This document shows, piece by piece, positions 7,554 to 60,108 of a DNA stretch of 64,000 bases (its first letter is position 1; every line of letters starts with the position of its first letter). The position numbers were made by a program, and so were the translations under genes. Location of the stretch: assembly GCF_054482595.1 (NCBI RefSeq), contig NZ_JBTHVH010000004.1, one strand, 5' to 3'. Origin of the DNA: a plasmid. The notes under the pieces were generated by a model, which was not told the DNA's origin, made no database searches, and saw only the letters and a program-made list of their open reading frames with translations.

Positions 7554-8192
7554 TTATAAGACCACGTTTACTTCTGGCGGCGGCGGTGGCAGGTCTTCAA
7601 GACCGATCACTTCTTTTTTGCTGGACTCCACTTTCTGACTGCCTACCGAAATGCTCGCACTGACCCATTTAAAGAAAGCTTTAATCGTCGAACTGTCAGC
7701 TGTATCGAGCTGAACCACGATTTCAGTGATTTCTTTGAGGACGCTGGTATCGGCATCATGCCCGGCTGCACATGCCACAACAACGCCGGTTCTGGCCGCT
7801 TTAAAGTCATTCAGGCCTTTACGCCAGTCATCATTCGGACTTCCATCCGTCATCAGGAATACAAGGGGACGCCAGTCACCTTTAGTGTCAGCCGTCGTTT
7901 TCTGTACTTCTTTGGCAATGGAGCTGGCCGTGAGGGAAAGCGCTTCGCCAAGAGAGGTGGTGCCGCTGGCTGTTAGTGCTGGCATCTGGAAACTCAGGAG
8001 GTCTGTCAGGGGGACTGCCTGTCGGGCTGAAGAATCAAAGGTGATCACTGACACGTAAGCCGTTTCGAGTGCATACGGATCCTGTTTCAGCGTGGTAAGC
8101 AGCGTCTGAACGCCATTCTTAACCGCTTCGATAGGCTCTCCGTGCATAGAGCCGGACGTGTCGAGTAGCAGATATACGGGTAAGCGTCTCAA
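7554..8192 (-). CDS. terY: vWA-domain protein TerY
   Basis: 'RRLPVYLLLDTSGSMHGE' MIDAS motif. Start assigned to TTG at 8192 preceded by AAGAAGGAA, matching the other vWA paralog N-termini, rather than the track GTG at 8273. Confidence 0.75.
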   Translation of the reverse strand: MRRLPVYLLLDTSGSMHGEPIEAVKNGVQTLLTTLKQDPYALETAYVSVITFDSSARQAVPLTDLLSFQMPALTASGTTSLGEALSLTASSIAKEVQKTTADTKGDWRPLVFLMTDGSPNDDWRKGLNDFKAARTGVVVACAAGHDADTSVLKEITEIVVQLDTADSSTIKAFFKWVSASISVGSQKVESSKKEVIGLEDLPPPPPEVNVVL

Positions 8193-50314: not shown

Positions 50315-50491
50315 TGATGAACATTTTTTCACCGCATTACCGCATTTAGGTTATTGCATTTAATCTATCGCATATAGGCTATGTCGTTCATTGTGTGCCG
50401 TCACGTTTAGATTATGGTGTCAGGGTATACCCTTATGCGATAACCATTTTTGTTAAAAATAACGCATCGAATAATTTATGAGGAAAACTAT

Positions 50492-53479
50492 ATGGCAAGG
50501 AGGCAGATTCTTTCTCTGTCGGAAAGAGAATCATTACTGGCATTACCGGACGATGAGTTAACGCTGACCCGAATGGCCTATTTCAGTGAGCATGATCTGG
50601 CGCTTATCAGTGCTCACCGTAAACCCGCCAGCCGTTTTGGTTTTGCCGTCCTTCTTTGCTATCTGAAAAATGTCGGCTTTGCCCCGGATAAAAAAATCTC
50701 TCCCTCTGATGCGCTGCTGAAGCATATCGCCAGCAGGCTAAAGCTTACCGGGGATCTCTGGCCTGCTTACCTTTCCGGCCGGGATACGACCCTGCGTGAG
50801 CATTTAACCGAACTGTACCGCTATCTTGGCGTAAAGGCGTTCACCGGCAAAATACAGCAGGACTGTATTACGCACCTGTTATCGATGGCGACGCGCACCG
50901 ATAAAGGCATTCTCCTAGCCGAAGAGTTACTTGTCTATCTCCGGCAGAACAACGTGATAATCCCCGCGATTGATGTCGTGGAGCGTACCTGTGCTGAAGT
51001 CATGGCAGGCGGCGATAAAATCGTATTTCAGACCCTGAATGCCCCGTTAACTCCGGCTCACAGGGATGCCCTGGATCATTTACTTGAGTCATCAGATAAT
51101 CAGCCTTCCAGGCTGACATGGCTTCTGCAACCGCCGGGTAAAATCAATGGTAAGAACGTGCTGCAACATCTTGATCGGCTCAGCAGCATTGAATCGCTGG
51201 CATTACCTGAAGGTATAGATCGTACCATTCACCAGAACCGGTTGCTGAAACTGGCGCGGGAAGGCCGAAAGATGAGTAGCCGGGATTTGACCCGATTTTC
51301 AGCTGCCCGGCGTCATGCGATCCTGGTGTGCGTGCTGGAAGAAGCCAGAGCCACACTGACAGACGAAGTGATTGAGCTGCATGAGCGAATGCTGAATAGT
51401 CTTTTCAGCAAAGCCAAACGAACACAGGCTGAGCGCCTTCAGCAGACCGGAAAGCTGATCCAGTCAAAACTGAGGCAGTACATCGATGTCGGTCAGGCGC
51501 TGTCTGATGCCCGTGATTCCGGTGGCGATCCCTGGCTCGCAATAGAAAACATACTCCCATGGGCTGAATTTGTCGCCAGTCTGGATGAAACACGCCATCT
51601 CGCCAGAAAAAATAATTTTGACCCGCTGCATATTATTACCGAGAAATACAGCACATTACGGAAATATGCCCCACGCATGTTGTCCGCTTTACAGTTAGTC
51701 GCAACCCCGGCAGCGCAACCTCTGGCTGATGCACTGGTTGTGATCAAGGATATGTACCGGAAGCAGTCACGTAAAGTTCCGGCGGCAGCGCCGCTTGAGT
51801 TTGTCCCTGAAAGCTGGCGCAAGGTGGTGATTACACCTGTGGGTATTGACCGGCAGTACTATGAGTTTTGTGCACTCAGCGAGCTTAAGGGGGCGTTGCG
51901 CTCCGGGGATATCTGGGTTAAAGGCTCGCGCCGCTACAAAAATTTTGATGATTACCTCATACCCGAGAAGGACTTTGACAAACTCACACCGGCACTGCCA
52001 CTGCCCGTATCTGCTGATTATCATGAGTACATTACCAGCCGTATGACCCTGCTTCAGTCCAGACTTGAAGAGGTCAATGCCATGGCTGCCCTTGGTGAAC
52101 TGCCCGATGTGGAAATATCCGACAGGGGCGTAAAAGTCTCTCCGCTGGATAACTGCGTTCCGGCGCAGGTTTCACCGCTGGCAGAGCTGGTTTACAGCAT
52201 GCTACCGCGACCTAAAATCACGGAAATTCTCGATGAGGTAAACAGCTGGACGACGTTTACCCGACATTTTTCGCATATAAAAAATGACATTACCCGTCCC
52301 GATACCCGCTTGCTCCTCACCACCATTCTTGCGGATGGCATCAATCTTGGCCTGACCAAAATGGCAGAAGCCTGCCCCGGGAGCACCAAATCATCACTCG
52401 AAGATATTCAGGCATGGTACATCCGTGACGAAACCTATTCAGCCGCTCTTGCAGAGCTGGTAAATGCGCAGGGGAAAAGACCGTTGGCGGCATTTTGGGG
52501 AGACGGAACAACGTCATCATCAGATGGACAAAATTTCAGAACCGGCAGCTCAGGCCGCTACGCAGGGCAGGTTAACCCGAAATATGGGCAAGAGCCTGGA
52601 CGTCAGTTTTATACCCATATTTCGGATCAATACAGCCCGTTTTACACCTGCATAATCAGTCGGGTCAGGGATTCAACCCATGTTCTCGATGGCTTGCTGT
52701 ACCACGAAAGCGACCTGGAAATCAGGGAACATTACACCGATACCGCTGGTTTCACCGATCATGTCTTTGCCCTGATGCATCTGTTGGGATTTGCGTTCTG
52801 TCCGCGAATCAGGGATCTCCACGACAAAAAACTGTTTATCAAAGGGAAAGCAGAGAAATACCCGGCGCTTCAGTCACTGATATCAACGACCAGCCTGAAT
52901 CTGAAAGAGATCGAAATCCACTGGCGTGAAGTGCTGCGTCTGGCAACCTCGATAAAGCAGGGAACCGTGACGGCATCCCTGATGCTGAAAAAGCTTGCCA
53001 GCTATCCCAAGCAAAACGGACTTGCCAAAGCACTGAGAGAAATTGGCCGCATTGAGCGAACCCTGTTTATGCTCGACTGGTTCCGCGACCCGGCTCTGCG
53101 TCGGCGGGTACAGGCGGGGCTGAATAAAGGCGAAGCCCGTAACGCGCTGGCGCGTGCGGTATTTATGCACCGACTGGGAGAAATCAGGGACAGAAAACCG
53201 GAAAATCAGAGCTATCGCGCCAGTGGACTGACGCTGCTGACGGCTGCCATATCCCTGTGGAATACCGTCTATATGGAAAGAGCGGTCGATGCCCTGAAGC
53301 GTAAAGGGGTGAAGATCAACGAGCAACTGCTGTCGCATTTGTCGCCGTTGGGCTGGGAACACATCAATCTGACAGGTGATTATATCTGGAAAAGCAACCG
53401 GATACCGGCTTCTGGTAAGTTTCGTCGGCTAAGACCAGCTAAAGTCGAAAGGTCAAAAAACAGCCTTAACGTACAATAA
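50492..53479 (+). CDS. tnpA: Tn3-family transposase TnpA (995 aa)
   Basis: Full-length; conserved C-terminal '...HYTDTAGFTDHVFALMHLLGF...LSPLGWEHINLTGDYIW'; ATG at 50492 with AGGAAAAC RBS. Confidence 0.85.
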   Translation: MARRQILSLSERESLLALPDDELTLTRMAYFSEHDLALISAHRKPASRFGFAVLLCYLKNVGFAPDKKISPSDALLKHIASRLKLTGDLWPAYLSGRDTTLREHLTELYRYLGVKAFTGKIQQDCITHLLSMATRTDKGILLAEELLVYLRQNNVIIPAIDVVERTCAEVMAGGDKIVFQTLNAPLTPAHRDALDHLLESSDNQPSRLTWLLQPPGKINGKNVLQHLDRLSSIESLALPEGIDRTIHQNRLLKLAREGRKMSSRDLTRFSAARRHAILVCVLEEARATLTDEVIELHERMLNSLFSKAKRTQAERLQQTGKLIQSKLRQYIDVGQALSDARDSGGDPWLAIENILPWAEFVASLDETRHLARKNNFDPLHIITEKYSTLRKYAPRMLSALQLVATPAAQPLADALVVIKDMYRKQSRKVPAAAPLEFVPESWRKVVITPVGIDRQYYEFCALSELKGALRSGDIWVKGSRRYKNFDDYLIPEKDFDKLTPALPLPVSADYHEYITSRMTLLQSRLEEVNAMAALGELPDVEISDRGVKVSPLDNCVPAQVSPLAELVYSMLPRPKITEILDEVNSWTTFTRHFSHIKNDITRPDTRLLLTTILADGINLGLTKMAEACPGSTKSSLEDIQAWYIRDETYSAALAELVNAQGKRPLAAFWGDGTTSSSDGQNFRTGSSGRYAGQVNPKYGQEPGRQFYTHISDQYSPFYTCIISRVRDSTHVLDGLLYHESDLEIREHYTDTAGFTDHVFALMHLLGFAFCPRIRDLHDKKLFIKGKAEKYPALQSLISTTSLNLKEIEIHWREVLRLATSIKQGTVTASLMLKKLASYPKQNGLAKALREIGRIERTLFMLDWFRDPALRRRVQAGLNKGEARNALARAVFMHRLGEIRDRKPENQSYRASGLTLLTAAISLWNTVYMERAVDALKRKGVKINEQLLSHLSPLGWEHINLTGDYIWKSNRIPASGKFRRLRPAKVERSKNSLNVQ

Positions 53480-53502
53480 TTTTCGATATCCAAACTGACC
53501 CC
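53465..53502. repeat. Tn3-family 38-bp terminal inverted repeat overlapping the tnpA stop
   Basis: 'CTTAACGTACAATAATTTTCGATATCCAAACTGACCCC' shares the CTTAACGT..GACCCC ends of the Tn3 IR; no partner left IR found in the window. Confidence 0.55.
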
Positions 53503-53832
53503 GAATACAAGGACAATGCCGGTACCGCCTGATTACTTCTGGCGTCGTCTACAATGTTACTCCAGGCATATGCTGCGTCGTCCGGGGTTTGTTTTGGATC
53601 TATGTCCAATGTCGGCCAGACGTGGCCCTGATGATTCTTGCCCTTTGTACAGGAAGTGATTAAGTGTACTGAGCGTTCAGAGAACATTATCTTCCTTACA
53701 TACCCATAGAACAGCTTTCTAAGAACGGTGGGCTCGGCTGAAAATTACAAATCAGCCCCTTTCACGGCATCATTTTGATTCTTCGCGTCTGCCCCAGTAA
53801 GATGACCGGTTTTCTGCATGACAGTGTTATTC

Positions 53833-54126
53833 CTAACAAACGCAACACAAAACCACGCCAGCCAGAGCAAATTTTTTCATTTGCTGCGTAAAGAGCCTAT
53901 TGTTTTCTCTTTTAAGCTTCGCCCACTCGTTACAGAGGGTAACATCATCAAGCGCTGTTATATGCTTCGCCTCACCTTCGACGATAACGGTATGGATACC
54001 GTATGCTGTAAATCTCATACTATTTTCCAGAACCCAGTTGCGGTATTCGTCGAGTCCACCTTCGGAACCGGTAGCTCTGCGCCACATTTCAATTTGCTTG
54101 TGTGATGGGTCAAGTGTACTTGTCAT
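53833..54126 (-). CDS. Hypothetical protein (97 aa)
   Basis: ORF only. Confidence 0.3.
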   Translation of the reverse strand: MTSTLDPSHKQIEMWRRATGSEGGLDEYRNWVLENSMRFTAYGIHTVIVEGEAKHITALDDVTLCNEWAKLKRENNRLFTQQMKKFALAGVVLCCVC

Positions 54127-54394
54127 TGAAGCCTCGTCTCAGCGATAACGCTTGAAATAGCCCGCTTTGGTCATCATGAAATTAGCCATCTGACTGGCGA
54201 TTTGATTGTATCTTACTCATAGTGCCCTACCTATAGGTTAAAAAGGGGCATTTTCGCTTTATAGCGTGTTCAGCAGCATCAATCCTCCCAAGAAAGGCTG
54301 GCTTATTAAGCCGGTCCATCATTTTCTGTATATCTCTCATCAATTTTTATATCCGCCCTGGAGTGCACCGTTCAAGCACACCGATTAGGCAGAT

Positions 54395-54680
54395 AGTCAC
54401 TAGTTAACTCTTTACTAGTGACTAAATTCCATTGATATACGTGACAACGTCACGTCATGAAAGCTTTTAAATGCCTATTTTTCATACAATGGGATTTAAT
54501 TAGGAGTAAATCCCATAGGCTTACATAAGGATGACAATTAAAAGCGTTAAATATCAACCAGATAGAATGATTACCCCCAATTAATGGGCTCATCACATTA
54601 TTTCACTGGCTGGGGTTATTGCTGGCATATCTGAAAGTGCTAATATGTTAGTCATTAGTAATTAGTAAAGCCTTTACTAA
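54395..54680. promoter_or_regulatory. Palindrome-rich intergenic region (candidate operator / partition-type sites)
   Basis: Palindromes 'AGTCACTAGT..ACTAGTGACT' (about 54395..54424), 'ACGTGACAACGTCACGT' (about 54439..54455), 'TTAGTAAAGCCTTTACTAA' (about 54662..54680), plus repeated 'TAGTG(C/T)CCTACCT' at about 54217 and 54709. Confidence 0.45.
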
Positions 54681-54768
54681 ACGCGTTTCTACGTAAATTC
54701 TATAGGTTTTATAGTGTCCTACCTTTGCTCAAATCAAAATGTTCTGACATACCAAAATGGAGTGTAAA

Positions 54769-55587
54769 ATGACTCAAAACCAGGGTTCTGAGCCAGTACC
54801 GGCGAGCCGGACAGGGCAGCTCATCAGCGCCCGGGATATGGCCATGCAGAAATTCGAAGAAGGGATGCGGTTAATCTCGGAAGCGTCGGAACTGTGCGGT
54901 CTCTCTCTCTTCACCAGCAGAATTATGCAGCCCAACGCATTTGGTCTTCCGTCGTCACTGGATCGCACCATCGAGGAGGGGCGTAAGGAAATTGACCGTA
55001 AAACGTGGAAAAGGCTCTTTGAAGAAACAGGTATGGACCGGTACTGGAACCATAAGCAAAAAGAAGCCTTTAACGAATCCCTTCGTACGGATCCGCCCGT
55101 CGCTTCCCTGGAGATTGTTAAGGGAACATTACAGCATGCACTGGCTAACAGACGAGACACCCTTGCAGAAGGTTTCGTTGATGTTCTCAACAAGCTTGAC
55201 CGAAGTTTCAAAAGCAATGCCAGGCAATATACAATGCCAAAAAAGCTTGTTCTTCGGGGGATTTTTCCTGGTGTGAACGTGCTGAGGTACAACGGTTTCT
55301 CGCAGGACAATCACTTTTGTTTACGCGACTTTGAGAATATTGTATGCATCTGTTCTGATACTCCAACACCTGCAACCGGCGGTGGGCTGAGTATGGTCGA
55401 CAGGCTGACGGCCATGAGAAATACAGAATTCACAGGCGAGGTCAGTGATGAGAATGGCTGGCGGTGTCGCCTGTTTGAGAATGGAAACGTTCATATTTGC
55501 ATCGACAGTATCTCGCTTCTGAATGCTCTGAACGATCTTATCAGCATATATTTTGCAAACCAGCTTCCGGCCGCAGGAAAAAAATGA
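54769..55587 (+). CDS. Hypothetical protein (about 272 aa)
   Basis: ATG at 54769 with GGAGTG RBS; its stop overlaps the next start (ATGA), indicating translational coupling. Confidence 0.5.
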   Translation: MTQNQGSEPVPASRTGQLISARDMAMQKFEEGMRLISEASELCGLSLFTSRIMQPNAFGLPSSLDRTIEEGRKEIDRKTWKRLFEETGMDRYWNHKQKEAFNESLRTDPPVASLEIVKGTLQHALANRRDTLAEGFVDVLNKLDRSFKSNARQYTMPKKLVLRGIFPGVNVLRYNGFSQDNHFCLRDFENIVCICSDTPTPATGGGLSMVDRLTAMRNTEFTGEVSDENGWRCRLFENGNVHICIDSISLLNALNDLISIYFANQLPAAGKK

Positions 55588-56789
55588 TGATTGAAAATGA
55601 TAAAGAAAAAAGCCTGAACGATGCTACCCCGCCAGAGGTGCAGAATGACATCCGCAGCGAATCCACTGAAAAATCAAAGGAAATGGGTCGTTCAAGGTAC
55701 TCATCTATCGCGATGATCGATTACTTCAATGCAATCGAACGTCTGTGCAAAGAGAAAGAAATTAACCCGGAAAATATCGATCTGAGCTTCAAAGTTCACT
55801 GGCTCAGAAACGCTGTTGGCGGCTCGTTTGCAAGGTCACAGGAGATGTTCGCGGAGTACCAGAAGTATGTTAAAGAGGTTCCTGAAGAGGCCCGTTACCT
55901 GGATATACCCGATGAGGTAAAGGTTGCACTCGGCGATATTATCTCGTACATCACCTGGCACTACCGTAGAAGCTATACCGCAATACAGAATGATAGTGTT
56001 AAAAAAGCTGAAGCACGTAGCATGCAGCTGGAGGAGGAGGTAACGCAGCTGTTACAGCGGCTTGAGCAAAGCGCTACCGATATGGATGAGCTGAAACTTG
56101 AGAATCAGGCACTACAGGGTCGATTAGAGATCCGGGACAGTACCGTCAAGGAGTTAGAAACAAGGCTGAATGTTGCCGAAGCAGAACTCGAAACCTGCCA
56201 TCACCAGTTAGATAGCACACGGCATGAATTGAGCCTCGCACAGCAGTCAAATGACTCACTCTCCCAGCAACTGGCTGAACGTAAAACAGAGATCGCTGGT
56301 CACCTTGAATATCAAAAAAAGCTGAACGAAGAGATCAACACGCAGCGTTCTGATAACGCCGGTCTTTCCAGACAATGCGACCAGTTAAGTCAGACTGTGT
56401 CAGATACAAAGGCAGAGAGGGACAGGTTTGAACAGGAATTGATTGCTGCACAGAACCTTTGTACTGAGCTGAAAAGTGCACTGTCCGGGAAAGAGGGTGA
56501 CCTGGTGGCGGTGAATGCCGAGCTTACTGAACTCCATAAACTAAACGAGTCGCTGAGCGCCGACCTGAATAAAGTAACTTTGGTCAGCCAGGGCTATGAA
56601 GCGGAAGTGGCTGAACAAAGCAATGAACTCAAAACGCTCCAGGCCAAAGTAATGAAGCTGGAAGCTACCCTGGAGGCGGAGAAAACAATCTCAGAATCCC
56701 TAAAAGGCACCATTGATACATTAACTGGTGCAATGGCAGGGGGAGGTACTGGAAAGTCAAAACAGCCGCGTAGCAGAAAAACATCATGA
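55584..56789 (+). CDS. KfrA-like DNA-binding protein with long coiled-coil C-terminal region
   Basis: N-terminal 'HWLRNAVGGSFARSQEMFAEYQ' resembles the KfrA N-domain GGGSF motif; the C-terminal about 250 aa is heptad-like and Glu/Leu/Gln-rich. Confidence 0.5.
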   Translation: MMIENDKEKSLNDATPPEVQNDIRSESTEKSKEMGRSRYSSIAMIDYFNAIERLCKEKEINPENIDLSFKVHWLRNAVGGSFARSQEMFAEYQKYVKEVPEEARYLDIPDEVKVALGDIISYITWHYRRSYTAIQNDSVKKAEARSMQLEEEVTQLLQRLEQSATDMDELKLENQALQGRLEIRDSTVKELETRLNVAEAELETCHHQLDSTRHELSLAQQSNDSLSQQLAERKTEIAGHLEYQKKLNEEINTQRSDNAGLSRQCDQLSQTVSDTKAERDRFEQELIAAQNLCTELKSALSGKEGDLVAVNAELTELHKLNESLSADLNKVTLVSQGYEAEVAEQSNELKTLQAKVMKLEATLEAEKTISESLKGTIDTLTGAMAGGGTGKSKQPRSRKTS

Positions 56790-56852
56790 TAAATGAAGCC
56801 AGGTTGATACACTTCTCTGCATCCCCTGGCACATAAGAACTTCTGCGGACAT

Positions 56853-57056
56853 TCAGCCCGTCCGCAGGAGTTTTCGTCCTTCAGTCAACAAATGCACTAC
56901 CTTTTTTGAGTCTCCACTTTCCAGAGCAGAAAACACGTTACCGATTCTACCAACAGCTTGTATCTGAGTGATAACCCCAGTCTTGTAATCATCTAGGATC
57001 CCTGACAGGAAAGCGTTCAGTTTTGTCTGTTCGCTTAGCGAAAGCATGTAGGACAT
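56853..57056 (-). CDS. Hypothetical small protein (67 aa)
   Basis: ORF at the 3' end of the minus-strand methyltransferase operon. Confidence 0.3.
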   Translation of the reverse strand: MSYMLSLSEQTKLNAFLSGILDDYKTGVITQIQAVGRIGNVFSALESGDSKKVVHLLTEGRKLLRTG

Positions 57057-57068
57057 TTTTTCTCCATT

Positions 57069-58388
57069 TTAAGCAGGTGTGTCAGTTGAAAGAGGTTTGC
57101 GTGATTCTGGAAAATGAGGCAGCACCATAGTTTCAGATGCTGTGGTCGCATCCCAGTGCCACCATCCATAAGGCCCATATTCACGGTTGTAATAATCTTT
57201 TTTGAGTTGCTTTCGGGCCAGATAAGCAGGAGTGGCCATACCAAATACTTCCATCGGGAACGGCTTATCGCTTTTTGTGTCGAGCAGGTAGAAGTCAGGG
57301 AACACCTCACTAATACTCGCATCATAACGCATGGGCTTAACGTACTGCCGGTGCTCTGCATCCAGCTTTTCTGCAACAACCGCCTCATAGGAGGAGTCCA
57401 GAGGTATCCAGTTCTCGCTAACGTGCATCAGCACAATTTGATGAGCTCTTACAGAAGGGCCTCTGCCGGTTACCGCAGCTGGTGACGTCAACGCAAAGAC
57501 AACTATTTTCGCCCCGGATTTCCATGCTGCGTACTCCGATGAAAATCGTTTCTTTACGCTATCCCAATGGACTTCTGAATTGAAAAAAATCAGCGGTAGC
57601 CCCCCAAAATTCCGCAGGGGTAAAAATTTAAGTGGCTTCTCATGCTTTTCAGCATCGTAGCGAGGTAAAACTGACAGGAGCATGAGACGTTTATCACTCA
57701 TCGCCTGTGATGAAAGACGCTGAATTTGCGACTGAGCGACAGGTTGTTTCGGGTCAGGTACACCAATGAATAAATGGTCACCTATGCAGGCTCTGCCGGT
57801 ACGAATTTGTTTAGCGGTTTCAAGCAGACGATACCGTACCAGTGAATCGTTACGTTTCCCTGCCATTTTCGGGTACCAGACATTCAGACCAGACTCTGTC
57901 CACAAAAGACTAAGCAAGCCCAGGAGGGTCATTGAGGCCTGACCTCCTTCTGGTCGCTGAACATGGGGCAGGGGAGGCACTTCTGATTTTTCAGGAGGAT
58001 CTTTCTCTGTCATACCGATACCGAGCCTTACAGCCATATCACCTTCGGTTGTAATCCGGACCACACCACTCGCATATCCTTTCAGGCCGGTATGCCGGGC
58101 ATCAAGGGAGAAGAATACACAGGAAGGATCATGCTCAATGCCCGTGTTAGCGGCTTTGACGAGAATAAAGGCATCACCGTTCGGTAAAGCACGAACATAA
58201 AGTCGCTTTTCTCCTTTTCCACGACATCCGCAGGTGATGACTGATTTTTGACCTGAGGTGTGGTGTGCCTTTTTAAGAGCCGACTGCCACCCTTTAGCAA
58301 ACTCATCCTGCGTTTGAAAGTCAGGTGAATACCTTTTGACGTTTGGATCGTCGTCGTAAGCAATCATCACTGCGAATTTTTGGCTCAT
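57069..58388 (-). CDS. Hypothetical protein (439 aa; possibly DUF1173-like)
   Basis: Long ORF co-oriented with and downstream of the C5-methyltransferase; contains 'CGCRG' and 'PDFYLLDTK' segments; family uncertain. Confidence 0.5.
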   Translation of the reverse strand: MSQKFAVMIAYDDDPNVKRYSPDFQTQDEFAKGWQSALKKAHHTSGQKSVITCGCRGKGEKRLYVRALPNGDAFILVKAANTGIEHDPSCVFFSLDARHTGLKGYASGVVRITTEGDMAVRLGIGMTEKDPPEKSEVPPLPHVQRPEGGQASMTLLGLLSLLWTESGLNVWYPKMAGKRNDSLVRYRLLETAKQIRTGRACIGDHLFIGVPDPKQPVAQSQIQRLSSQAMSDKRLMLLSVLPRYDAEKHEKPLKFLPLRNFGGLPLIFFNSEVHWDSVKKRFSSEYAAWKSGAKIVVFALTSPAAVTGRGPSVRAHQIVLMHVSENWIPLDSSYEAVVAEKLDAEHRQYVKPMRYDASISEVFPDFYLLDTKSDKPFPMEVFGMATPAYLARKQLKKDYYNREYGPYGWWHWDATTASETMVLPHFPESRKPLSTDTPA

Positions 58389-58410
58389 AGTAGTCTCCTA
58401 AACAGGAAGT

Positions 58411-58578
58411 TTAATATCCCAACCAGAGCAACACTTCCTGAGCGTCATACTGTTCCTTTACGCCCATGTCGCTAAAGAATTCTTCGAAATCTGTTTCGGG
58501 AACGCAATGCCTGGACAGTTCTTGTAATGCTCGTTCTTTAGATACCGTCTCACCTTCAGCTGATTCGAAATACGTCAT
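58411..58578 (-). CDS. Hypothetical small acidic protein (55 aa)
   Basis: Not in the ORF track (<60 aa); 'MTYFESAEGETVSKERALQELSRHCVPETDFEEFFSDMGVKEQYDAQEVLLWLGY'; sits between the methyltransferase and the 439-aa gene. Confidence 0.25.
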   Translation of the reverse strand: MTYFESAEGETVSKERALQELSRHCVPETDFEEFFSDMGVKEQYDAQEVLLWLGY

Positions 58579-58638
58579 GGTTGACCTCTGACATTATTAC
58601 AACAATCTTAAGCATTTAAATTGATGAAGGAGCTCAGG

Positions 58639-60108
58639 TCAGCTGACTTCGTCGTAAAACTGCCGCAAGCGCTGGGAGGCTGCAAATTCAATTCGTGACT
58701 TCAGCAGTTTGGCGACGGCCGCAAAGACATCAACGACCACGGAGTTCCCAAACTGTCTGTAAGCCTGTGTATTGGACACAGGGATACGGAAAACACTTTC
58801 CCCGGGTTTATCGAAGCCCATTAGCCTGCTGCATTCACGTGGCGTTAGCATGCGTGGCCGACGGTCCATGTTGTATGTGTTATGGAAATCAGTTTCTCCC
58901 AGTTCATGAGACCAGCCCCGATCAATAAGAATTTCAGATCCGTCTTTCATATAGCGGCTTGAGAGGGTTATGGTGACACTATTAACATTGGAAGGATCTA
59001 CTAGTCCAAAACCAAAACCATTGCCTTTTGCCGCATGTTTCTTTGCATAGTTGTATAAGTACTCCCAGAGTTTAGGGGAGAGGATGTATTTACTATCTAC
59101 GCTCGGATCCAGTAAATCTGAGAGAGAAGGGCGCTTGTCCGGATAAAAGTCTTTAATGTCTCTCAGAGTAAAACCGTCTTTCAGACGTAGGTCGCGGCGA
59201 AAACCAATAAGGACGATACGTTCACGGTGCTGGGGTCGGAAATGACGGCCATCGATGACTTTAGGATCATCCGCGCCCGTGCTTTCGCTGTTTGCGACGT
59301 CGTAGCCAAGCTCATCGAGCGTTTTCATGATGATGTTAAAGGTATTACCCTTATCGTGACTCTTCAGATTTTTTACGTTTTCCAGAACAAAAATTGCAGG
59401 TTGTTTTGCCCGGATGATCCTGGCCACATCAAAGAAGAGCGTACCCTGAGTGTCGCACTCGAAACCGTGTTTGCGACCCATAGAGTTCTTTTTACTGACA
59501 CCGGCGATGCTGAATGGCTGGCATGGAAATCCCGCAAGAAGAACATCATGATCCGGGATAGAGGCATCGATAAATTTGTATGCCTCGTCATCAGTAACCT
59601 CGGGCCGGTTGCTAAGAGTGATGTCACGGATGTCTGAATTGAAGCGGTGCTCGTTCTCATCGCAATACCAGTTCGCCCGGTAAGTACGGCTGGAATAAGT
59701 ATTCCATTCGCTCGTGAAAAGACATTTACCACCGATGGCATCAAATCCGCTTCGCAGTCCACCTATCCCTGCAAACAGATCGATAAAGCTAAAGTGCCTG
59801 TCCTCATAATCAGCAGGTCGTGAAGGTATTAAAGTCTGTAGATAGCGTCCATCTGCGATACTCAGCTCACAATGCTCAGGTATGCATGTAACCTGACGTT
59901 TAAGGGATGCACGGGACCAATTACTGCCATTTTCATCATTTAATACCTGAGCCAGATATTTCAGGTCATAAATGGTCGAAGCTGTTAACAAAGTTTTGTG
60001 GATCAGAGATGGTGTTTTATCCACATCATTCAGGTCTGTCTCAAGATCATGAGTGTAACGTTTCATCCAAACTCTCTCAGGAATAATATCTTTGAGATAG
60101 ATTAACAC
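58639..60108 (-). CDS. DNA (cytosine-5)-methyltransferase
   Basis: C5-MTase motifs '[15 protein letters not shown]' (I), '[11 protein letters not shown]' (IV), 'VLENVKNL' (VI); start is either GTG at 60108 or ATG at 60066. Confidence 0.8.

What the first reader, a model, noticed from the sequence alone, without database searches (positions are those of the whole stretch)
54769..56789. Translationally coupled pair: unknown 272-aa protein plus KfrA-like coiled-coil protein
The ATGA overlap links an uncharacterised protein to a protein with a KfrA-type N-terminal DNA-binding motif and about 250 residues of coiled coil, a layout seen in plasmid segregation and maintenance accessory factors.
Basis: partly seen in the sequence, partly recalled or inferred. 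Interest (0 to 1): 0.45.

Follow-up and report, generated by a model that had tools for sequence, protein, structure and literature searches.

The report
IncHI plasmid DUF4942–coiled-coil gene pair
The two overlapping genes are real and are a conserved backbone operon of IncHI resistance plasmids: the first protein belongs to a family typical of the part of a plasmid that enters a new cell first, the second looks like the DNA-binding coiled-coil protein KfrA, and nothing here supports the proposed role in plasmid segregation.

Summary
Window 54769-55587 encodes a 272-aa protein (A) and 55584-56789 a 401-aa protein (B). They share an ATGA overlap, and each has its own Shine-Dalgarno sequence.

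A is not anonymous. It is a stand-alone DUF4942/YdiA protein (Pfam E 3e-26). This family is enriched in plasmid leading regions. In many relatives it forms the N-terminal half of N6-adenine methyltransferases of mobile elements. A has no methyltransferase domain.

B has a helix-turn-helix-like head of about 100 aa, roughly 250 residues of heptad coiled coil and a basic tail. That is the KfrA layout. It fails the Pfam KfrA_N test (1 of 13 orthologues, E 0.066). A profile-profile alignment is collinear but not significant (probability 1.9%).

B exists only in IncHI-type elements. In all six lineages examined it directly follows A, with a gap of -4 or +2 nt. Convergent DUF1173 and Dcm genes lie beyond it in each lineage. 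No par or rep genes lie within 12 kb.

IncHI1A plasmids carry a nonsense codon in A while B stays intact.

A palindrome found only at this locus, and a second palindrome that overlaps a -10-like box, sit upstream in most or all lineages. This suggests KfrA-style autoregulation.

Verdict: a real, uncharacterised IncHI backbone operon. KfrA-like is a fair analogy. A segregation function is unsupported.

The parts
54394..54424 (.). Palindrome TAGTCACTAGTTAA-ctc-TTTACTAGTGACTA. It is related to the TAGTAAAG-N-CTTTACTA palindrome at 54662-54680.
   Evidence: A related site lies in L002 at about 7650-7680.
54441..54453 (.). Palindrome GTGACA-AC-GTCAC, an operator-like site specific to this locus.
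   Evidence: It occurs once in each of 7 IncHI-like loci, always upstream of the DUF4942 gene. It is absent from the rest of the window and from the other two stretches (90 kb) of plasmid NZ_CP042898.1 that were read. Expected frequency is 0.01 per 64 kb.
54487..54518 (.). Palindrome CAATGGGATTTA-N8-TAAATCCCATAG overlapping a -10-like hexamer TTTAAT (54495-54500). Candidate operator or 5' hairpin.
   Evidence: It lies 10-55 nt downstream of the GTGACA palindrome in 5 of 6 lineages. Its arms change in a compensatory way: ATGCGATATAA/TTATATCGCAT in L003 and L014, ATGAGATTTA/TAAATCGCAT in L015.
54662..54680 (.). Perfect palindrome TTAGTAAAG-c-CTTTACTAA, 107 nt upstream of the start of A.
   Evidence: It is extended to GTCACTAGTAAAG-g-CTTTACTAGTGGC 70 nt upstream of the start of A in L002.
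54769..55587 (+). Gene A: 272-aa stand-alone DUF4942 (YdiA-family) protein. GGAG Shine-Dalgarno at 54759-54762.
   Evidence: Pfam PF13708 E 3.3e-26. phrog_38825 E 4e-100. AlphaFold2 pLDDT 89, pTM 0.84. Matches AFDB DUF4942 models. Carries the family-invariant residues W80, D187, H242, N255.
55584..56789 (+). Gene B: 401-aa protein. ATGA overlap with A; AGGA Shine-Dalgarno at 55575-55578.
   Evidence: 14 orthologue clusters of 337-408 aa (13 of them 384-408 aa), those with a named source from Enterobacterales.
55689..55988 (+). B head, residues 36-135: a conserved helical HTH-like domain. Residues 1-35 are variable and predicted disordered.
   Evidence: Alignment A3. AlphaFold2 pLDDT 85. Foldseek hits are HTH domains, including a KfrA_N protein, none significant. 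hhalign against a KfrA_N profile gives E 0.026, probability 1.9%.
55989..56738 (+). B coiled coil, residues ~136-385.
   Evidence: Heptad periodicity z = 5.1, Fourier peak at 3.5, no proline. Generic coiled-coil hits.
56739..56786 (+). B C-terminal Gly-rich basic tail (GGGTGKSKQPRSRKTS). It holds a chance P-loop-like string, which explains the 'ATP/GTP-binding protein' label in some records.
   Evidence: The GK[ST] string is not conserved in L002 or L003.
56838..56872 (.). Inverted repeat AACTTCTGCGGAC-N9-GTCCGCAGGAGTT between the convergent operons. Likely a bidirectional terminator.

Best explanation
This is a two-gene backbone operon specific to IncHI-type plasmids. It sits inside a conserved block of DNA-transaction genes: H-NS, HNH nucleases, DUF1173, a Dcm-type orphan methyltransferase and an SNase nuclease.

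Shown:
- The two genes are kept adjacent, with a -4 or +2 nt junction and an internal Shine-Dalgarno sequence, in every lineage that has B.
- Both are under purifying selection.
- A is a stand-alone DUF4942/YdiA protein. Elsewhere this module is the non-catalytic N-terminal half of NPPF/Y-type (M.TaqI-like) methyltransferases of mobile elements. As a stand-alone gene it sits in the leading regions of IncL/M, IncI and IncFII plasmids.
- B has a helical HTH-like head, about 250 residues of coiled coil and a basic tail.

Inferred:
- B dimerises through the coiled coil and binds DNA through its head, as KfrA does.
- Its likeliest targets are the palindromes in its own promoter region, so the operon would be autoregulated.
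- Coupled translation delivers A and B in fixed proportion, so that B scaffolds or positions A on plasmid DNA.
- The role is in establishment or protection of the plasmid's DNA in a new host, or in its nucleoid-level organisation. It is not in ParA/ParB-driven partition.
For: - Pair conservation and junctions.
- B is restricted to IncHI-like elements and always lies downstream of A.
- A family membership and fold.
- DUF4942 fused to class-I SAM methyltransferases with an NPPF motif.
- Leading-region location of stand-alone DUF4942 next to ssb, psiB/psiA, ardA/antirestriction genes and oriT/relaxase.
- The DUF4942/YdiA families rank 24 and 76 among leading-region-enriched gene families in Samuel et al. 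2024 (PMC11541004, supplementary file 3).
- B architecture.
- Collinear KfrA_N landmarks. Foldseek returns HTH-type hits, including KfrA_N.
- Locus-specific palindromes that travel with the operon while the upstream neighbour gene changes.
- No par or rep genes nearby.
Against: - No physical A-B interaction, DNA binding or phenotype was tested here or found in the literature.
- The HTH/KfrA similarity of the B head is below significance.
- A is a pseudogene (nonsense at codon 152) in IncHI1A plasmids such as pHCM1, while B is intact. B therefore does not strictly need A.
- Distant stand-alone DUF4942 genes have no B-like partner.
- In IncHI2 plasmid NZ_CP042898.1 the pair lies about 45 kb from mobI and the relaxase, so a leading-region position is not established for IncHI.
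- The consensus scan found no sigma-70 promoter in the upstream region. The palindromes could serve another regulator.
Confidence: 0.4

Rival explanations
1. B is a true KfrA homologue that acts as an accessory to the plasmid's partition machinery by forming DNA-bound filaments and contacting ParA/ParB. A plays the part of KfrB/KfrC.
For: - Same head, coiled coil and basic tail architecture, and similar length (401 against 342 aa).
- Collinear alignment of head landmarks.
- One orthologue hits Pfam KfrA_N at E 0.066. A KfrA_N protein ranks 6th in Foldseek.
- A palindrome overlaps a -10-like box, as described for the putative R751 kfrA operator.
Against: - Pfam KfrA_N is not met in 13 of 13 orthologues at E <= 0.001.
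- hhalign probability is 1.9%.
- The coiled coil is Leu/Glu/Gln/Ser-rich with 9.6% Ala, against 30% Ala in R751 KfrA.
- The pair is not adjacent to any par operon.
- B is the second gene of its operon.
- A's family is tied to leading regions and methyltransferases, not to partition.
Confidence: 0.2
2. A and B are co-transcribed neighbours with independent functions. B is an autonomous DNA-binding or structural protein. A is a YdiA-type establishment or anti-defence factor that happens to share the promoter.
For: - IncHI1A plasmids keep B intact, with an identical protein (WP_010892342.1), while A carries a fixed nonsense codon.
- Thousands of plasmids carry DUF4942 without any B-like gene.
Against: - In every one of six divergent lineages with B, A lies immediately upstream with a -4 or +2 nt junction. 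Synonymous sites are saturated and the upstream neighbour genes have been exchanged, yet the junction persists. This is hard to explain without functional coupling.
Confidence: 0.2
3. A is a non-catalytic targeting or regulatory subunit for a methyltransferase encoded elsewhere, for example the conserved Dcm-type enzyme 3 kb downstream. It would mimic in trans the DUF4942-methyltransferase fusions. B would tether that complex.
For: - DUF4942 is fused to a bare ~180-aa catalytic methyltransferase domain in many relatives.
- A Dcm-subfamily methyltransferase (NF007772, 841 bits) is syntenic with the pair in all six lineages.
Against: - The fused methyltransferases are N6-adenine/NPPF type. The neighbour is a complete C5-cytosine enzyme with its own N-terminal domain.
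- Distant DUF4942 genes occur without any adjacent methyltransferase.
- The separate N-6 methylase near DUF4942 in an IncFII(K) plasmid is unrelated to the fused domain.
Confidence: 0.1
4. The pair is a defence, abortive-infection or addiction (toxin-antitoxin-like) module.
For: - The setting is a mobile element rich in nucleases and methyltransferases.
- B hits PADLOC LmuB and JetC models.
Against: - The PADLOC hits cover only coiled-coil rods of SMC-like proteins. B has no ATPase head, and A has no PADLOC hit.
- The P-loop-like string lies in a non-conserved tail.
- Loss of A with retention of B in IncHI1A argues against A acting as an antitoxin.
Confidence: 0.05

Closest known systems
KfrA of IncP-1 (RK2, R751) and IncU (RA3) plasmids (Pfam KfrA_N head plus coiled coil)
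   Same: - Plasmid-encoded and almost entirely alpha-helical.
- Small N-terminal helical head, then about 250 residues of coiled coil, then a Gly-rich basic C-terminal tail.
- Collinear head landmarks: P, GGS, aromatic residue, P, W.
- Palindromic sites in its own upstream region, one overlapping a -10-like hexamer.
- Encoded in an operon with a partner protein.
   Different: - No significant sequence or fold match to KfrA_N.
- The head is preceded by a 35-aa disordered extension and carries a 7-residue insertion.
- The coiled coil is not alanine-rich.
- The gene is second in its operon, not first.
- It is not adjacent to a partition operon.
- Its partner is DUF4942, not KfrB or KfrC.
[not shown]
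   Same: - A matches the Pfam domain and the predicted fold, and keeps the family-invariant residues.
- Stand-alone size of about 270 aa.
- Carried by a conjugative plasmid.
   Different: - A is only 20-30% identical to the IncL/M, IncI and IncF proteins.
- In IncHI it is not shown to be close to oriT.
- Only in IncHI is it coupled to a coiled-coil gene.
- The family has no demonstrated function.
DUF4942-methyltransferase fusion proteins (450-600 aa; M.TaqI/Erm-like class-I SAM domain with NPPF/Y)
   Same: The whole of A (residues ~10-270) aligns with their N-terminal half.
   Different: A ends at residue 272 and has no methyltransferase domain. It cannot methylate by itself.

Membership tests
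KfrA family | N-terminal HTH domain recognised by Pfam KfrA_N (PF11740) | tested here: not met
   13 B-head orthologues were scanned. None reached E <= 0.001. One reached E 0.066. Full-length B showed no KfrA_N among its listed hits.
KfrA family | Remote homology or fold similarity of the head to KfrA_N | tested here: inconclusive
   hhalign of the B-head profile against a profile of 8 KfrA heads gave E 0.026 and probability 1.9%, over 68 collinear columns with matching conserved landmarks. In Foldseek against AFDB50, a KfrA_N protein ranked 6th at E 1.4 among other HTH domains.
KfrA family | Long C-terminal coiled coil (about 250 aa) following the head | tested here: met
   Residues ~136-385 have heptad periodicity (z 5.1, Fourier peak at 3.5) and no proline.
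KfrA family | Alanine-rich, non-canonical coiled coil (reported as characteristic in PMC7821693) | tested here: not met
   Ala is 9.6% in B, against 29.9% in R751 KfrA residues 77-327. Departures from the heptad pattern were not analysed.
KfrA family | Gene next to the active-partition operon and first in a kfrA-kfrB-kfrC type operon | tested here: not met
   No par or rep genes lie within 12 kb in the uninterrupted IncHI2 backbone. B is the second gene, after DUF4942. For the R751 layout.
KfrA family | Site-specific DNA binding to an operator overlapping its own promoter; autoregulation; filament formation on DNA | not testable with these tools
   Conserved palindromes exist upstream, but binding was not tested.
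DUF4942 / YdiA family (PF13708) | Pfam domain match above threshold | tested here: met
   E 3.3e-26, model positions 2-187 of 190. phrog_38825 E 3.8e-100.
DUF4942 / YdiA family (PF13708) | Family fold and invariant residues | tested here: met
   W80, D187, H242 and N255 are invariant in 84 sequences. The AlphaFold2 model (pLDDT 89) matches AFDB DUF4942 models, for example TM 0.84-0.87 at 30% identity.
DUF4942 / YdiA family (PF13708) | Location in the leading region next to oriT (a statistical property of the family, not a strict criterion) | tested here: inconclusive
   This holds in the IncL/M, IncI-gamma and IncFII(K) samples. In IncHI2 the pair lies about 45 kb from mobI and the MobH relaxase, and the polarity of transfer is unknown.
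DUF4942-fused N6-adenine DNA methyltransferases | C-terminal class-I SAM-dependent methyltransferase domain with an (N/D)PP(F/Y) motif | tested here: not met
   A ends at residue 272. It has no methyltransferase hit in Pfam or NCBIfam. Long relatives do have the domain.
P-loop NTPase ('ATP/GTP-binding protein' label in some records) | Conserved Walker A motif inside an NTPase fold | tested here: not met
   The only string is AGGGTGKS, in the C-terminal tail after the coiled coil. It is not conserved in L002 or L003. No NTPase domain was hit.
Known anti-phage defence systems (PADLOC) | Match to a defence-system protein model beyond low-complexity or coiled-coil regions | tested here: not met
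   A has no hit. B hits only the coiled-coil arms of LmuB and JetC models.

The most novel reading that the evidence does not exclude
B founds a divergent sister family of KfrA whose job is to load a YdiA/DUF4942 protein onto plasmid DNA. DUF4942 would then be a DNA-engaging module. When it lacks its methyltransferase half, it would protect or mark incoming plasmid DNA without methylating it. This would give a first function to one of the largest uncharacterised leading-region gene families.
Probability: 0.12. Interest if true: 0.65.

Novelty: new variant of a known kind. Interest (0 to 1): 0.36.

Why it matters
The locus is part of the backbone of IncHI1 and IncHI2 plasmids. These plasmids are major carriers of mcr-1, NDM and multidrug resistance in E. 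coli, Salmonella and Enterobacter. The locus is at least 95% identical in more than 1100 sequenced plasmids, and neither gene has a known function.

DUF4942/YdiA is among the most abundant uncharacterised families enriched in plasmid leading regions. The IncHI version is the only one found here with a fixed partner and a candidate operator, which makes it a tractable entry point to that family.

If B proves to be a KfrA relative, the KfrA-type 'head plus coiled coil' proteins would extend from broad-host-range IncP/IncU plasmids to the large enterobacterial IncHI plasmids.

This is useful but not surprising. It refines annotation and suggests experiments rather than overturning anything.

Tried and rejected
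- **PDB sequence searches.** Searches with A, with the A-family profile, with the B head and with the B-head profile gave nothing below E 0.1.
- **PADLOC.** Only coiled-coil artefacts.
- **Rfam on 53400-57200.** Only a sub-threshold hammerhead HH9 hit (22 bits against a gathering score of 52), which is chance.
- **Sigma-70 and terminator scan.** No promoter was found upstream of A, and hits were fewer than in shuffles.
- **First search for B-head homologues.** It returned mainly fragments. An alignment query recovered the full-length orthologues.
- **P0010 context look-up.** Not on record.
- **RK2 accession BN000925.** Not in the collection. R751 was used instead.
- **Separate N-6 methylase near DUF4942 in an IncFII(K) plasmid.** Tested as a possible detached version of the fused methyltransferase domain. 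It is not related.
- **Literature.** 'DUF4942' occurs in 4 papers as an annotation only, and 'PF13708' in none.
Full report
**What is there**

Window 54769-55587 (+) encodes a 272-aa protein (A). Window 55584-56789 (+) encodes a 401-aa protein (B). The stop of A (TGA 55585-55587) and the start of B (ATG 55584-55586) form an ATGA overlap. A has GGAG 6 nt upstream of its ATG. B has AGGA at 55575-55578, inside the end of A. An inverted repeat at 56838-56872 lies between B and the convergent genes downstream and looks like a bidirectional terminator.

**Origin**

The 2.5-kb stretch is 100% identical in hundreds of large (150-370 kb) plasmids of E. coli, Salmonella, Enterobacter and relatives, most of them conjugative. 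1143 plasmid records cover at least 80% of it. It is found in 291 of 5426 complete E. coli genomes, almost always on plasmids. RefSeq calls the two genes 'DUF4942 domain-containing protein' and 'coiled-coil domain-containing protein'.

The carrier is an IncHI2-type plasmid. It has the ter operon, mcr-1, hha, a MobH relaxase, mobI and trhH. In this window a Tn3-family transposase (50450-53479) and a resistance region lie immediately upstream and truncate the divergent neighbour gene.

**Are the genes and the pairing real?**

Yes. Orthologous pairs were recovered from five further lineages:
- IncHI1-like elements (L002, L009, L018-L022);
- three other enterobacterial element lineages (L003 and L014; L015; L016 and L017).

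A is 54-65% identical to the window protein in these lineages and B is 28-43% identical. Synonymous sites are saturated (pS 0.75-0.9). Non-synonymous differences are 0.22-0.33 for A, 0.24-0.45 for the B head and 0.44-0.54 for the coiled coil. So both genes are under purifying selection, with the rod evolving fastest.

In all six lineages B starts 4 nt before or 2 nt after the stop codon of A, always behind a purine-rich Shine-Dalgarno-like stretch. The ATGA overlap is therefore one form of a conserved tight junction.

B has only 14 orthologue clusters in a 5.8-billion-protein collection. Thirteen are 384-408 aa long and one is a shorter 337-aa entry. tblastn finds B only in IncHI-type plasmids. 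Every B examined follows a DUF4942 gene.

The reverse is not true. DUF4942 genes at 20-33% identity occur in at least 5000 plasmids without any B-like neighbour.

**Protein A**

A matches Pfam DUF4942 (E 3.3e-26). It has 583 relatives in a 50%-clustered library of 1.8 billion proteins.

Two architectures exist:
- stand-alone proteins of 250-290 aa, like A;
- proteins of 450-600 aa in which the same module, aligned from about residue 10 to 270, precedes a class-I SAM-dependent methyltransferase domain.

That methyltransferase domain gives:
- weak Erm/KsgA/HemK hits in NCBIfam;
- Pfam MTS;
- M.TaqI and rRNA methyltransferases as the nearest solved proteins;
- an NPPF motif;
- strong matches to methyltransferase segments of giant phage proteins.

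A itself has no methyltransferase domain.

**Where stand-alone DUF4942 genes sit in other plasmids**

- In IncL/M (pOXA-48-like) plasmids the gene lies with hha, DUF1380, an antirestriction gene and ssb, just before mobA/traI.
- In an IncI-gamma plasmid it lies after psiB, psiA and ardA, within about 700 bp of nikA.
- In an IncFII(K) plasmid it lies between psiA and an antirestriction gene, ahead of traM.

**Protein B**

Residues 1-35 are variable and predicted disordered. Residues 36-135 form a conserved helical head (alignment A3; AlphaFold2 pLDDT 85).

Residues ~136-385 are a coiled coil. The hydrophobic Fourier peak lies at period 3.5. Occupancy of a/d positions is 5.1 sd above shuffles. 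There is no proline. All database hits to this part are generic rods: SMC, crescentin, LmuB, JetC.

The last 16 residues are Gly-rich and basic. The string AGGGTGKS there explains the 'ATP/GTP-binding protein' label in some records. It is not conserved, and there is no NTPase fold.

**Is B a KfrA?**

The defining features of KfrA come from PMC7821693: a Pfam KfrA_N HTH head, a coiled coil of about 250 aa, autoregulation through an operator at its own promoter, and a position beside the partition operon. R751 is the example.

| Test | Result |
|---|---|
| Pfam KfrA_N on 13 B-head orthologues | one hit, E 0.066 |
| hhalign, B-head profile against R751 KfrA alone | aligned LRNAVG-GSFARSQEMFAEYQ with VRKQLGSGSFTTISEAMNEWR; probability 0.1% |
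| hhalign, B-head profile against a profile of eight diverse plasmid KfrA heads | 68 collinear columns, E 0.026, probability 1.9% |
| Foldseek against AFDB50 | only the family itself is significant; a KfrA_N protein ranks 6th at E 1.4 among sigma-factor, transposase and repressor HTH domains |

In the profile-profile alignment the most conserved positions of the two families correspond at similar spacing: P29/P22, GGS/GGS, Y59/W46, P76/P62 and W92/W77.

Other differences from KfrA:
- The coiled coil has 9.6% Ala, against 30% in R751 KfrA.
- No par or rep gene lies within 12 kb of the pair.
- B is the second gene of its operon.

B therefore works like a KfrA in layout and may be a very distant relative. 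I put that at roughly even odds. It cannot be filed as a member of the family.

**Upstream region**

The 640-bp AT-rich spacer (36-39% G+C) holds three kinds of palindrome.

1. GTGACA-NN-GTCAC (54441-54453). It occurs exactly once in each of seven IncHI-like loci, always upstream of the DUF4942 gene. It occurs nowhere else in the 64-kb window or in the other two stretches (90 kb) of the IncHI2 plasmid that were read. The expected frequency is 0.01 per 64 kb.
2. A second palindrome 10-55 nt downstream, present in five of the six lineages. Its arms differ between lineages in a compensatory way. It overlaps a -10-like TTTAAT/TATAAT hexamer (54487-54518).
3. TAGTAAAG-N-CTTTACTA. It lies 107 nt before the start of A and is conserved in IncHI1.

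The upstream neighbour gene differs between lineages, so these sites belong to the A-B unit. An inverted repeat over the -10 is the putative KfrA operator described for R751. It is a reasonable inference, not a result, that B or another locus-specific factor binds here. The consensus promoter scan found nothing, and Rfam found nothing real.

**Surroundings**

Downstream and convergent, in all six lineages, lie DUF1173 and a Dcm-subfamily cytosine methyltransferase. In most lineages a 55-59 aa ORF sits between them. The methyltransferase scores 841 bits to NF007772 and matches the PADLOC 'orphan MTase' model. An SNase-type nuclease follows where the contig extends far enough. DUF1173 is a PD-(D/E)XK-like protein without the active-site signature (PMC3045609). 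Upstream in the uninterrupted backbone are an H-NS homologue, HNH nucleases, a CoiA-like protein with a helicase, and HipA. The block deals with DNA. It contains no partition or replication function.

**A natural experiment**

IncHI1A plasmids (pHCM1 and three others) share a TAA at codon 152 of A, while B is intact and identical. IncHI1B plasmids have an intact A. B can therefore persist without A. This argues against an antitoxin-type dependence and weakens, without excluding, an obligatory complex.

**Conclusion**

The best-supported reading (confidence about 0.4) is an IncHI-specific operon. It couples a YdiA/DUF4942 establishment-type protein to a KfrA-like DNA-binding coiled-coil scaffold that probably regulates itself.

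The rivals are:
- a genuine KfrA-type segregation accessory (0.2);
- functionally independent neighbours (0.2);
- a methyltransferase-targeting subunit (0.1);
- a defence or addiction module (0.05).

None can be settled without binding, interaction and deletion experiments. Novelty is moderate: a known but uncharacterised family (A), plus a new divergent KfrA-like family (B), in a combination not described before.

Noticed in passing
window 54441-54453; L002 7698, L003 7576, L009 5743, L014 3938, L015 4797, L016 4592: The GTGACA-NN-GTCAC palindrome is unique to the region upstream of the DUF4942 gene in every IncHI-like lineage. It is absent from the rest of the window and from the other two stretches (90 kb) of the IncHI2 plasmid that were read. 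The half-sites are invariant although the B head diverges to about 30% identity, so the binding factor may not be B.
   Followed up: partly
window 54487-54518; L003 7642-7677; L014 3977-4002; L015 4832-4863: A palindrome whose arms co-vary between lineages overlaps a -10-like hexamer. It could be an operator that co-evolves with its protein, or an RNA/DNA hairpin at the start of a long 5' UTR. In L016 two 17-nt direct repeats take its place.
   Followed up: partly
L009 6087-6899 (pHCM1); L018, L019, L020 587-1399: IncHI1A plasmids share a TAA nonsense codon at codon 152 of the DUF4942 gene, while the downstream coiled-coil gene stays intact. IncHI1B plasmids (L021, L022) have the intact gene.
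   Followed up: yes
window 57069-60108 (- strand): A conserved convergent operon: a Dcm-subfamily C5 methyltransferase (58639-60108), a 55-aa ORF (58411-58578) and DUF1173 (57069-58388). DUF1173 has a Zn-motif N-terminus and a PD-(D/E)XK-like C-terminus without the active-site signature. The layout resembles a restriction-modification operon, but DUF1173 also occurs without the methyltransferase (L005-L007, L029).
   Followed up: partly
window 50450-53479 and 53833-54126: A Tn3-family transposase and a resistance region abut the locus and truncate the divergent upstream gene. That gene is 126 aa in the uninterrupted backbone (L001 11247-11627), and a homologue is labelled 'tgtA5 cluster protein 2' in L010. 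The A-B upstream region is left intact.
   Followed up: partly
window 56739-56786 (B residues 386-401): The string AGGGTGKS fits the Walker A pattern by chance and is the likely source of the 'ATP/GTP-binding protein' annotation in older records. The Gly-rich basic tail ending RKTS resembles the tail of R751 KfrA (GGRKKT).
   Followed up: yes
P0061, P0066, P0076, P0089, P0119, P0151 (relatives of A): The methyltransferase domain fused to DUF4942 matches segments of giant (1200-3900 aa) phage protein families (phrog_9133, 15406, 11358, 10691). It therefore belongs to a methyltransferase lineage typical of large multi-domain proteins of mobile elements.
   Followed up: no
L010 (NZ_MN868652.1): In this IncHI1B/IncX1 record the whole block, including DUF1173 and the A-B region, is broken into short ORFs. 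This looks like frameshift-rich assembly error rather than biology.
   Followed up: no
window 54782-54846 (- strand): A sub-threshold Rfam hit to hammerhead ribozyme HH9 (22 bits, gathering score 52) inside the coding sequence of A. Judged to be chance.
   Followed up: no
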